DNA of 64,000 nt, from contig NC_042999.1 in the NCBI RefSeq assembly GCF_006345805.1, positions 114,824,001 to 114,888,000 of the forward strand, written 5' to 3'. Positions within the stretch are counted from its first letter, which is position 1. The number at the start of each line of letters is the position of its first letter. Made by a program: the position numbers. The stretch is from Octopus sinensis. Lineage: Eukaryota. Positions 22,061 through 24,378 of this stretch are shown here, in pieces.

Positions 22061-24332
22061 TAAAGAATTTTTATTTTTAGATATAAATGATGTACTCAAG
22101 TGTAGTTATGTTTTTAGCTTGTGCTTTTTCCATGATCATACGTGAGTATTTTATTTATATCCCATCGAAATTTCTACTGAAGAAGGAATATATCTTTTTT
22201 ATATGATTAAGTCCGAAATTGATTCAATATAGAGATAACGAAATTTAAATTTTCTAAAGGTTAGTTGCCCGTTTTCAGTTTCGATTTTCCTGTAACAAGC
22301 GGATTATAAGTGGATAAAACAGTGTATTTGGCTTTAGAATAACCCTCTTTAGCCCTTATTATTATATGTATATTTCAACCGTAACGGTTTTTTTAAATAT
22401 ACTGCCCACGCTTCCTGATGAATTCCTTGGCTGTAGAGTAAGGGACTTCATCCTTATTGCTTAGTAGTAAACTCGATGCTTGCTACAGGAGGACTGGTAA
22501 CCATTACATTTGTAGCGCGGCGAAAGGTCTGGACGTTGTTTTCTGAGGCTGACCAAAGAATTTTTATTTTTAGATATAAATGATGTACTCAAGTGTAGTT
22601 ATGTTTTTAGCTTGTGCTTTTTCCATGATCATACGTGAGTATTTTATTTATATCCCATCGAAATTCTACTGAAGAAGGAATATATCTTTTTTATATATTA
22701 AGTCCGAAATTGATTCAATATAGAGATAACGAAATTTAAATTTTCTAAAGGTTAGTTGCCCGTTTTCAGTTTCGATTTTCCTGTAACAAGCGGATTATAA
22801 GTGGATAAAACAGTGTATTTGGCTTTAGAATAACCCTCTTTAGCCCTTAATTATATGATGTATATTGCAACCGTAACGGTTTTTTTAAATATACTGCCCA
22901 CGCTTCCTGATGAATTCCTTGGCTGTAGAGTAAGGGACTTCATCCTATATTGCTTAGTAGTAAACTCGATGCTTGCTACAGGAGGACTGGTAACCATTAC
23001 AATTTGTAGCGGCGAAAGGTCTGGACGTTGTTTTCTGAGGCTGACCAAAGAATTTTTATTTTTAGATATAAATGATGTACTCAGGGTAGTTATGTTTTTA
23101 GCTTGTGCTTTTTCCATGATCATACGTGAGTATTTTATTTATATCCCATCGAATTTCTACTGAAGAAGGAATATATCTTTTTTATATGATTAAGTCCGAA
23201 ATTGATTCAATATAGAGATAACGAAATTTAAATTTTCTAAAGGTTAGTTGCCCGTTTTCAGTTTCGATTTTCCTGTAACAAGCGGATTATAAGTGGATAA
23301 AACAGTGTATTGGCTTTAGAATAACCCTCTTAGCCCTTAATTATATGATGTATATTGCAACCGTAACGGTTTTTTTAAATATACTGCCCACGCTTCCTGA
23401 TGAATTCCTTGGCTGTAGAGTAAGGGACTTCATCCTATATTGCTTAGTAGTAAACTCGATGCTTGCTACAGGAGGACTGGTAACCATTACAATTTGTAGC
23501 GGCGACGAAAGGTCTGGACGTTGTTTTCTGAGGCTGACCAAAGAATTTTTATTTTTAGATATAAATGATGTACTCAAGTGTAGTTATGTTTTTAGCTTGT
23601 GCTTTTTCCATGATCATACGTGAGTATTTTATTTATATCCCATCGAAATTTCTACTGAAGAAGGAATATATCTTTTTTATATGATTAAGTCCGAAATTGA
23701 TTCAATATAGAGATAACGAAATTTAAATTTTCTAAAGGTTAGTTGCCCGTTTTCAGTTTCGATTTTCCTGTAACAAGCGGATTATAAGTGGATAAAACAG
23801 TGTATTTGGCTTTAGAATAACCCTCTTTAGCCCTTAATTATATGATGTATATTGCAACCGTAACGGTTTTTTTAAATATACTGCCCACGCTTCCTGATGA
23901 ATTCCTTGGCTGTAGAGTAAGGGACTTCATCCTATATTGCTTAGTAGTAAACTCGATGCTTGCTACAGGAGGACTGGTAACCATTACAATTTGTAGCGGC
24001 GAAAGGTCTGGACGTTGTTTTCTGAGGCTGACCAAAGAATTTTTTTTTTAGATATAAATGATGTACTCAAGTGTAGTTATGTTTTTAGCTTGTGCTTTTT
24101 CCATGATCATACGTGAGTATTTTATTTTATCCCATCGAAATTTCTACTGAAGAAGGAATATATCTTTTTTATATGATTAAGTCCGAAATTGATTCAATAT
24201 AGAGAAACGAAATTTAAATTTTCTAAAGGTTAGTTGCCCGTTTTCAGTTTCGATTTTCCTGTAACAAGCGGATTATAAGTGGATAAAACAGTGTATTTGG
24301 CTTTAGAAAACCCTCTTTAGCCCTTAATTATA

Positions 24333-24378
<46 letters not shown>

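What the first reader, a model, noticed from the sequence alone, without database searches (positions are those of the whole stretch)
22062..24336. Candidate cephalopod retrozyme: ~492-bp tandem array with one hammerhead ribozyme per unit
Seen: 4.6 near-identical head-to-tail units. Each has a complete type I hammerhead (stem I, CUGAAGA, one extra A, GGA/UCC stem II, GAAA, near-palindromic stem III, AUA triplet). Predicted cleavage after 22229, 22720, 23212, 23707 and 24199 would release four 491-495-nt monomers. The array starts and ends at different phases of the unit and sits inside the (TA)n tract of a SINE. Known: Penelope-like elements carry minimal type I HHRs; metazoan non-LTR retrozymes are tandem HHR repeats processed to circular RNAs; palindromic stem III HHRs can act as dimers; an extra nucleotide after A9 is tolerated in natural HHRs. 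Inference: this is a recently integrated multimeric cDNA copied from a circular, self-cleaving non-coding RNA by PLE machinery. The unit is at or above the upper size range I recall for animal retrozymes.
Basis: partly seen in the sequence, partly recalled or inferred. Interest (0 to 1): 0.88.

Follow-up and report, generated by a model that had tools for sequence, protein, structure and literature searches.

The report
Hammerhead-ribozyme tandem repeat (retrozyme-like)
A 2.3-kb block of 4.6 nearly identical 492-bp repeats, each carrying a complete hammerhead self-cleaving RNA motif of the kind seen in Penelope-like retroelements, sits inside the (TA)n tract of an older dispersed repeat; it fits the known class of animal "retrozymes" and is not a new kind of element.

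Summary
TRF finds one array, 22062-24342, period 492, 4.6 copies, 98% matches. A descriptor scan finds five type I hammerhead motifs in the 64-kb window, on both strands, and all five are in the array at the stated cleavage sites. Such a motif is expected about 5e-5 times per unit by chance. The "extra A" after A9, the G10.1-C11.1 pair and the palindromic helix III are the features published for Penelope-like-element (PLE) hammerheads. The array interrupts the internal microsatellite of a SINE-like repeat. A second copy at 28172-27848 shows the uninterrupted state. (TA)n is a published PLE target.

Evidence against:
- No Rfam hammerhead model scores the motif.
- Helix III does not fold as a monomer.
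- The monomer's fold stability is not unusual for this window.
- There is no RT or endonuclease ORF nearby.
- No other copy of the unit was found.
- Junction microhomology is not significant.

The 492-bp size is within known ranges (51-972 bp). Cleavage, circular RNA, the cDNA origin and the cephalopod source remain inferences. Verdict: a new member of a known kind, of moderate interest.

The parts
22062..24336 (+). Tandem array of 4.6 units of about 492 bp (GC 0.33): a partial head unit, four full monomers and a partial tail unit.
   Evidence: TRF; blastn of one unit against the window; alignment A1; GC.
22165..22241 (+). Hammerhead motif 1 (approximate extent, including distal stem I). Core CUGAAGA starts at 22177 and predicted cleavage is after 22229.
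   Evidence: Descriptor scan.
22657..22732 (+). Hammerhead motif 2. Core starts at 22669 and cleavage is after 22720. Stem I is reduced to 5 contiguous bp by a 1-nt deletion, and the stem II loop is 23 nt.
23148..23224 (+). Hammerhead motif 3. Core starts at 23160 and cleavage is after 23212.
23643..23719 (+). Hammerhead motif 4, the copy analysed in detail. Stem I is 23648-23654/23708-23714, plus 23643-23645/23717-23719. The core is 23655-23661 and the extra A is at 23662. Stem II is 23663-23665/23690-23692 and encloses a 24-nt insert. GAA is 23693-23695. Helix III is 23696-23699/23703-23706. A17 is at 23707.
24135..24211 (+). Hammerhead motif 5. Core starts at 24147 and cleavage is after 24199. 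Stem I has 6 contiguous bp because of a 1-nt deletion in the 3' strand.
22230..24199 (+). Four predicted cleavage-to-cleavage monomers: 22230-22720 (491 nt), 22721-23212 (492), 23213-23707 (495) and 23708-24199 (492).
   Evidence: No ORF is kept from unit to unit.
22014..22061 (.). Left (TA)n tract abutting the array, preceded by (ACAT)n at 21933-22003.
24337..24385 (.). Right (TA)n tract abutting the array.
21729..21928 (-). Left half of the interrupted SINE-like dispersed repeat (the element reads on the - strand).
   Evidence: blastn: 70-76% identity to 27297-27488 and 28172-27977.
24386..24470 (-). Right half of the same interrupted SINE-like repeat.
   Evidence: blastn: 86% identity to 27932-27848.
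27848..28172 (-). Uninterrupted paralogue (the 'empty-site' model). The two halves are joined only by about 50 nt of (CA)n(TA)n.

Best explanation
This is a non-LTR retrozyme-type element: a non-coding, AT-rich 492-bp unit repeated head to tail, with each unit carrying one type I hammerhead ribozyme of the PLE-related kind.

Shown here:
- The array exists as described.
- Five motifs have a complete catalytic core and three helices.
- The motif is very unlikely to arise by chance.
- It carries the PLE-type features: an unpaired nucleotide between A9 and G10.1, a G10.1-C11.1 pair and a near-palindromic helix III.
- The array sits in the internal (TA)n of an older SINE-like repeat.
- There are almost no base substitutions between units.

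Inferred, following the published retrozyme model: the + strand is transcribed as a multimer. Helix III is too weak to form in a single motif, so two motifs pair through their palindromic helix III strands and cleave after the AUA triplet. [quoted passage not shown] A reverse transcriptase of an autonomous PLE, primed at a nick in a (TA)n target, then ran about 4.6 times round such a circle, or along an uncleaved multimer. That would produce this permuted, multi-unit insertion.
For: - Array.
- The five hammerhead motifs are the only hits in 128 kb of searched strand. The chance rate is about 5e-5 per unit for the relaxed descriptor and 0 in 40 Mb for a motif as good as this one.
[quoted passage not shown] All three are present here.
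- The helix III hairpin alone has 0.0 kcal/mol, whereas the homoduplex of its 11 nt has -6.7 kcal/mol. This fits the dimeric mode described for weak-helix-III type I hammerheads.
- The array meets the operational retrozyme definition of Li et al. 2026 and lies within their length range. GC is 0.33, below the 50% noted for animal retrozymes. There is no conserved ORF.
- An insertion of more than one unit with permuted ends needs a multimeric or circular template. The flanks are contiguous in a paralogue.
- (TA)n is a preferred target of Naiad PLEs, and such bias was also hypothesised for Neptune PLEs.
- The published model predicts tandem cDNA copies made from a circular template.
- Monomers m2-m4 differ by 0-1 substitutions over about 495 columns.
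Against: - No Rfam hammerhead family is reported at gathering score, or at E<=10 in 21900-24500, or in a 111-nt stretch around one motif.
- The hammerhead fold is not the MFE: -8.4 kcal/mol when constrained, against -11.7. In a 551-nt context the pair probabilities are about 0.25 for stem I, 0.08 for stem II and 0.005 for helix III.
- Helix II has only 3 contiguous bp, unlike the 6-8 bp described for PLE hammerheads.
- The monomer's fold z-score (-3.5 linear, -3.1 circular) is matched or beaten by 4 of 20 control segment-strands from the same window.
- Covariation cannot be assessed because the copies are nearly identical. The hammerhead region carries 4 variant columns against 4.1 expected, so there is no sign of selection.
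- No RT or GIY-YIG domain was found in 41 of the 51 ORFs of at least 120 aa, nor in 98 ORFs of at least 55 aa within 12000-34500.
- No other copy of the unit was found in the window, and a 102-aa chance ORF from the array has no relative in the protein collection.
- Monomer m1 differs from m2-m4 by 8-9 substituted and 7-10 gapped columns, which a single circular template does not predict.
- The junctions are no more (TA)n-like than 15% (right) and 31% (left) of all positions in the unit. No target-site duplication can be read within a microsatellite.
Confidence: 0.63

Rival explanations
1. This is an ordinary minisatellite or satellite that expanded at the DNA level by unequal crossing-over, replication slippage or re-integration of a rolling-circle-amplified extrachromosomal DNA circle. 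Its hammerhead-like motif is a dead relic or a coincidence, and no RNA intermediate is involved.
For: - Only one locus was seen.
- m2-m4 are almost identical while m1 differs, as local duplication of one variant would give.
- Most differences are slippage-type indels.
- Rfam is negative.
- The monomeric hammerhead fold is disfavoured.
- Fold stability is not distinctive.
Against: - The chance rate of such a motif is about 5e-5 per unit, and the motif carries three independent PLE-type traits.
- All 13 conserved core positions are intact in 5 of 5 copies.
- Tandem growth needs a starting insert longer than one unit, so a multimeric source is still required.
- The position inside (TA)n matches the PLE target bias.
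Confidence: 0.2
2. This is a fragment of an autonomous Penelope-like element: several 5'-truncated tandem copies of its pseudo-LTR region without the ORF. On this reading it is not an independent non-autonomous family.
For: - PLE insertions are often 5'-truncated partial tandems, and their hammerheads lie in the pLTRs.
- Li et al. 2026 find retrozymes to be sister to PLE pLTRs.
- The motif has PLE-type hammerhead traits.
- The target is (TA)n.
Against: - No RT or endonuclease ORF or remnant was detected in the window.
- 4.6 complete units with no ORF-derived sequence is more than the usual one-and-a-bit tandem of PLEs.
- Helix II is short and helix I long, the opposite of the PLE minimal motif.
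Confidence: 0.12
3. The copy number is an assembly artefact: one or two real units were inflated by mis-assembly of noisy long reads.
For: Differences between units are mostly scattered single-base deletions, a pattern typical of uncorrected long-read consensus. That attribution is my own knowledge and was not tested.
Against: Unit-specific multi-base variants (the m1 patches and the 3-nt insertion in m3) are distinct and ordered. Both junctions with unique flanks are clean.
Confidence: 0.05

Closest known systems
Metazoan non-LTR retrozymes (Cervera & de la Pena 2020, PMC7229834; Li, Clavereau & Pollet 2026 preprint, 10.64898/2026.07.22.740005)
   Same: Head-to-tail repeats of a few hundred bp; one type I hammerhead per unit; low GC; no ORF, LTR, PBS or PPT. 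The 4.6 copies fall within the usual range, since 75% of families have at most 7 units. Unit length is within 51-972 bp. The mussel, also a mollusc, has 350-390-bp units.
   Different: Only one locus is seen here, and expression and circles are untested. The hammerhead has the PLE-type bulged nucleotide and a 30-nt interrupted helix II domain. Rfam models do not detect it. Neither paper mentions a cephalopod in the text I read or searched (0 occurrences; species classes listed).
Minimal and variant type I hammerheads of Penelope-like elements (Cervera & de la Pena 2014, PMC4209133; Lunse et al. 2017 seen only as a reference entry)
   Same: [quoted passage not shown]
   Different: Here helix III is a 4-bp 'canonical-like' stem, not absent or 1-2 bp. 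Helix I is long (7+3 bp) and helix II short (3 bp plus an interrupted extension). No PLE ORF is linked.
Hammerhead-bearing satellite DNAs: pDo500 of Dolichopoda cave crickets (about 500 bp), newt satellite 2 and the Schistosoma repeat (PMC2837043 passages; PMC7229834 discussion)
   Same: A roughly 500-bp tandem unit with one hammerhead that processes multimeric transcripts to monomers. Single and double-hammerhead modes are discussed.
   Different: pDo500 makes up about 5% of a genome and is conserved among species, with compensatory changes. Here there is one short, very young array and no comparative data.

Membership tests
Hammerhead ribozyme, type I | Conserved core: C3 U4 G5 A6 N7 G8 A9 ... 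G12 A13 A14 ... A15.1-U16.1, with H17 not G | tested here: met
   5 of 5 motifs have CUGAAGA, GAA, A15.1-U16.1 and A17. One extra A lies between A9 and G10.1.
Hammerhead ribozyme, type I | Three helices around the core, with helix I open and helices II and III closed by loops | tested here: met
   Stem I has 5-7 contiguous bp (plus 3 more), stem II 3 bp and helix III 4 bp. Thermodynamic support is weak, with pair probabilities of 0.25, 0.08 and 0.005.
Hammerhead ribozyme, type I | Match to the curated Rfam covariance models (Hammerhead_1 and relatives) | tested here: not met
   There was no hammerhead hit at gathering score, nor at E<=10 in 2.6 kb or in 111 nt.
Hammerhead ribozyme, type I | The motif is more frequent than chance allows | tested here: met
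   0-1 hits per 20 Mb of random sequence, against 5 in the array and 0 elsewhere in the window.
Hammerhead ribozyme, type I | Compensatory base changes in the helices | tested here: inconclusive
   The copies are nearly identical. The region has 4 variant columns against 4.1 expected, and none is compensatory.
Hammerhead ribozyme, type I | Site-specific self-cleavage | not testable with these tools
   This needs in vitro transcription of constructs with one and two motifs.
PLE-type hammerhead variant | Unpaired nucleotide between 9 and 10.1; G10.1-C11.1; palindromic 15.2-16.2/loop 3 | tested here: met
   Extra A, G-C pair, and an 11-nt helix III strand that is self-complementary except for its central U. 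Criteria are from PMC4209133.
PLE-type hammerhead variant | Large helix II (6-8 bp) and short helix I (4-5 bp or less) | tested here: not met
   Helix II has 3 contiguous bp and helix I has 7+3 bp.
PLE-type hammerhead variant | Located in the pseudo-LTR of an element with an RT/GIY-YIG ORF | tested here: not met
   No such domain was found in the ORFs tested: 41 of the 51 ORFs of at least 120 aa in the window and 98 ORFs of at least 55 aa in 12000-34500. The genome beyond the window could not be searched.
Non-LTR retrozyme | Tandem repeat with at least 2 consecutive units that each hold a complete type I hammerhead; HHR MFE below -5 kcal/mol (Li et al. 2026) | tested here: met
   TRF array, 5 consecutive motifs, MFE -11.7 kcal/mol for the 91-nt region. 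I used my own descriptor, not their rnabob models.
Non-LTR retrozyme | Non-coding, low GC, no LTR/PBS/PPT | tested here: met
   GC 0.33. ORFs differ from unit to unit. The whole array is made of units, so it has no terminal repeats apart from them. PBS and PPT were not searched for explicitly.
Non-LTR retrozyme | Stable, highly self-paired monomer RNA | tested here: inconclusive
   z = -3.5 (linear) and -3.1 (circular), with 66% of bases paired. However, 4 of 20 control segment-strands reach z <= -3.48.
Non-LTR retrozyme | Dispersed multi-copy family; co-occurrence with autonomous PLEs in the genome | not testable with these tools
   No eukaryotic genome collection was available. There is one locus in the window, and the protein-proxy search was empty.
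Non-LTR retrozyme | Expressed as unit-length linear and circular RNA | not testable with these tools
   This needs Northern blots, RNase R treatment or divergent RT-PCR.

The most novel reading that the evidence does not exclude
This locus is a freshly made retrozyme insertion, captured with its empty-site paralogue. A circular roughly 492-nt hammerhead RNA was copied about 4.6 times round by a PLE reverse transcriptase, primed at an endonuclease nick in a (TA)n tract. If so, it would be the first retrozyme family described in a cephalopod. It would also be a rare single-locus record of target-primed rolling-circle reverse transcription, tying an HHR-bearing non-autonomous element to the (TA)n-targeting PLE endonucleases.
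Probability: 0.3. Interest if true: 0.6.

Novelty: new member of a known kind. Interest (0 to 1): 0.4.

Why it matters
The way animal retrozymes move is still a model. Authors propose that circular RNAs serve as templates for PLE reverse transcriptase, and only recently was sequence kinship with PLE pseudo-LTRs shown, in frogs. A very young insertion with permuted ends, a PLE-type hammerhead and a (TA)n target that a paralogue shows uninterrupted gives a concrete locus on which to test that model. It would also extend the class to another molluscan lineage if the cephalopod origin is confirmed. It does not open a new category. Hammerhead tandem repeats of this size and architecture have been known since the newt and cricket satellites.

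Tried and rejected
- Rfam at three settings gave no hammerhead or other ribozyme family. The hits in 21900-24500 were microsatellite look-alikes of miRNA models, far below gathering scores.
- A descriptor for minimal PLE hammerheads (helix III of 1 bp or more, helix II of at least 4 bp) gave 0 hits on either strand.
- I first took fold stability as evidence, then rejected it after the window control.
- Junction microhomology with (TA)n was not significant.
- The search for a linked PLE found no Pfam RT or GIY-YIG domain. In one search I submitted 41 of the 51 ORFs of at least 120 aa and dropped 10 that overlapped others in low-complexity tracts. In one search I dropped ORFs whose three commonest residues made up 55% or more, and ORFs lying inside 22000-24400.
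- The ORF at 28805-29284 looked GIY-YIG-like by eye. Pfam gave nothing at E<=10. A PDB profile search gave 0 hits at E<=10. The AlphaFold model was poor, with mean pLDDT 54. Foldseek gave 0 matches at E<=0.001. Only the atlas gave a weak lead.
- A 102-aa chance ORF from the array was used as a proxy for other copies of the unit and found no candidate. Only proteins of 56-179 aa were searched.
- ARAGORN found no tRNA-like SINE head.

Not used or not available:
- Genome contigs holds prokaryotes only, and the phage, plasmid and E. coli collections are irrelevant here.
The HHR family figures and species tables of PMC7229834, PMC4209133 and the 2026 preprint could list cephalopod or closely similar motifs that I could not see.
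- Lunse et al. 2017 is not held. De la Pena & Flores 2001 was seen only as a reference entry.
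Full report
**Observation.** Tandem Repeats Finder reports a single array at 22062-24342 with period 492, 4.6 copies, 98% matches and 1% indels. It is bracketed by (TA)n at 22014-22062 and 24329-24385 and preceded by (ACAT)n (sequence). It is the only high-scoring long-period array in the 64-kb window, apart from a 184-bp x 2 repeat at 33922-34289. 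blastn of one unit against the window finds only the array itself. The window contains no N.

**The hammerhead motif.** I wrote a descriptor for a type I hammerhead. It requires:
- stem I of at least 4 bp;
- CUGANGA;
- 0 or 1 extra nucleotide;
- stem II of at least 3 bp with a loop of up to 40 nt;
- GAA;
- helix III of at least 3 bp, closed by A15.1-U16.1;
- H17;
- the 3' strand of stem I.

I ran it on both strands of the window. It returned five hits, all in the array, with cleavage predicted after 22229, 22720, 23212, 23707 and 24199. Without the extra nucleotide it returned none, and a much looser version returned the same five. In the best-studied copy:
- stem I has 7 contiguous pairs plus 3 more beyond a 2x2 internal loop;
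- stem II is GGA/UCC around a 24-nt insert;
- helix III is 4 bp with a 3-nt loop;
- the cleavage triplet is AUA.

AUA is a triplet noted in natural viroid hammerheads (abstract of PMC1636495 in the listing). The monomers would be 491, 492, 495 and 492 nt.

**Chance.** I generated 20 Mb of first-order Markov sequence trained on the unit and another 20 Mb trained on the window.
- The descriptor allowing the extra nucleotide hit once in each 20 Mb, about 5e-5 per 492-nt unit on both strands.
- A descriptor as good as the observed motif (stem I of at least 7 bp, helix III of at least 4 bp) hit 0 times in 40 Mb.
- The very relaxed descriptor hit 24-29 times per 20 Mb.

The descriptor was written after seeing the motif, so these figures flatter it somewhat. 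Even so, the motif is not a chance find.

**What kind of hammerhead.** The extra A is the most informative feature. [quoted passage not shown] All three hold here.

The 11-nt helix III strand is self-complementary except for its central U. As a hairpin it has no predicted stability (0.0 kcal/mol), while as a homoduplex it has -6.7 kcal/mol. This is the arrangement said to allow cleavage by dimers in tandem repeats.

The motif departs from the PLE minimal type in two ways. Helix I is long, and helix II has only three contiguous pairs followed by an interrupted extension. It therefore sits between the "canonical" and "minimal" type I forms.

**Evidence against an active ribozyme.**
- No Rfam hammerhead model reports the motif at gathering thresholds, at E<=10 over 2.6 kb, or at E<=10 on 111 nt around one copy.
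- The hammerhead fold is 3.3 kcal/mol above the MFE of the 91-nt region. In the MFE, part of the core pairs with the helix III loop.
- In a 551-nt context the pair probabilities are about 0.25 (stem I), 0.08 (stem II) and 0.005 (helix III).
- PLE-type hammerheads showed low activity in vitro even as dimers.
- The copies are too alike for covariation analysis. The hammerhead region carries 4 variant columns where 4.1 are expected.

**Monomer structure.** The + strand monomer folds with z = -3.5, or -3.1 as a circle with 66% of bases paired. The - strand gives z = -1.9 and -1.8. I first read this as support. A control changed that: of 20 other segment-strands of 495 nt from this window, 4 reached z <= -3.48. 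Fold stability therefore does not set the unit apart.

**Site of insertion.** The left flank (21729-21928) and the right flank (24386-24470) each match other places in the window at 70-86% identity. In the copy at 28172-27848 on the - strand, the two homologous parts are joined by only about 50 nt of (CA)n(TA)n. The array therefore interrupts the internal microsatellite of an older dispersed element.

I call the element SINE-like. No tool confirmed it.

The array starts at unit position 327 and ends near position 139. The inserted block is therefore longer than one unit and circularly permuted, which requires a multimeric or circular source.

Craig et al. 2021 (PMC8557442, passages) report a strong PLE insertion bias for microsatellites. 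[quoted passage not shown] They also note that target-site duplications cannot be discerned in such sites, as is the case here.

I tested whether the junctions lie in unusually (TA)n-like parts of the unit, which would suggest microhomology priming. They do not: 15% (right) and 31% (left) of all positions score at least as high.

**Age and homogeneity.** Monomers m2, m3 and m4 differ by 0-1 substitutions and 4-7 gapped columns. Monomer m1 differs from them by 8-9 substituted and 7-10 gapped columns, concentrated in two short patches that look like small duplications and deletions. So the array is very young or homogenised. A single circular template does not by itself predict the m1 variant. 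The many single-base deletions could be consensus errors of the assembly, which I cannot check.

**Surroundings.**
- No Pfam family reached its cut-off in 41 of the 51 ORFs of at least 120 aa, nor in 98 ORFs of at least 55 aa between 12000 and 34500. In particular there was no reverse transcriptase or GIY-YIG domain.
- Units have no ORF in common.
- A 102-aa chance ORF from the array, used as a probe for mis-annotated copies elsewhere, found nothing.

**Comparison with what is known.** Cervera & de la Pena 2020 (PMC7229834; abstract and sections 13, 14 and 17 read) define metazoan non-LTR retrozymes as follows:
- low-GC tandem repeats with type I hammerheads;
- 150-450 bp in genomes, expressed as circles of about 170-400 nt;
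- present in many invertebrate phyla, including a mussel with 350-390-bp units.

They propose that circular RNAs are templates for an RT, probably of PLEs, giving tandem cDNA copies.

Li, Clavereau & Pollet 2026 (preprint; abstract and sections 5, 12 and 14 read) give an operational definition that this array meets. They report consensus lengths of 51-972 bp, find that 75% of families have at most seven units, and show retrozymes to be sister to PLE pseudo-LTRs in Xenopus.

The pDo500 satellite of cave crickets has units of about 500 bp with a hammerhead that processes multimers (PMC2837043 passages). The 492-bp size is therefore unremarkable.

**Novelty in print.** Searches for retrozyme or hammerhead together with octopus, and for hammerhead ribozyme with cephalopod, with octopus and with squid, found no paper in the held library that reports hammerhead repeats in cephalopods. 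PMC7229834 and PMC7761336 do not contain the word cephalopod.

The taxon of the window is itself unproven. The only tool-based hint is that the nearest protein-atlas clusters of a neighbouring ORF are eukaryotic, with Mollusca the commonest recorded phylum, on 2 recorded members.

**Verdict.** The best explanation is a retrozyme-type hammerhead repeat related to PLEs, recently inserted into a (TA)n tract. I put about 0.63 on that classification. I put about 0.5 on present catalytic competence (as a dimer) and about 0.4 on the specific rolling-circle cDNA origin. It is a new member of a known kind. Its main value is as a clean, young locus for testing the proposed mobilisation pathway.

Noticed in passing
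window 28805-29284, - strand: A 159-aa ORF that is not low-complexity lies about 4.5 kb from the array. It has six unnamed homologues at 40-75% identity. Conserved Cys motifs lie upstream of an 'IVY...(13)...YTG...R...H...E' pattern that I read as GIY-YIG-like (alignment A2). Pfam, a PDB profile search and Foldseek gave nothing, and the model has pLDDT 54. The protein atlas gives one related cluster with Pfam GIY-YIG on 22% of members, and Mollusca as the commonest recorded phylum of another. It lacks the two Cys between GIY and YIG that mark PLE endonucleases (criterion), so it is probably not a PLE remnant.
   Followed up: partly
window 27297-27488 (+), 27848-28172 (-), 28206-28244 (+), 61487-61568 (-): These are further partial copies of the SINE-like repeat that the array interrupts. 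Two of them lie tail to tail around 27.3-28.2 kb, each with its own internal (CA)n(TA)n tract.
   Followed up: partly
window 33922-34289: A second tandem duplication of 184 bp x 2.0 with 90% matches. My scans found no hammerhead descriptor hit there.
   Followed up: no
window 23708-23734 and the same position in each unit: The 3' strand of stem I can also pair with a near-duplicate of the stem I 5' strand lying 17-27 nt downstream (the first hairpin of the MFE), or with the U-rich stem II insert (MFE partners). These are possible alternative conformers that would keep the ribozyme off.
   Followed up: partly
window 25070-26750, 30100-31600, 56300-58400 and elsewhere: Dense trinucleotide and other microsatellites produce most of the long 'ORFs' in the window, and their translations are low-complexity. 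No convincing host exon was seen near the array.
   Followed up: no
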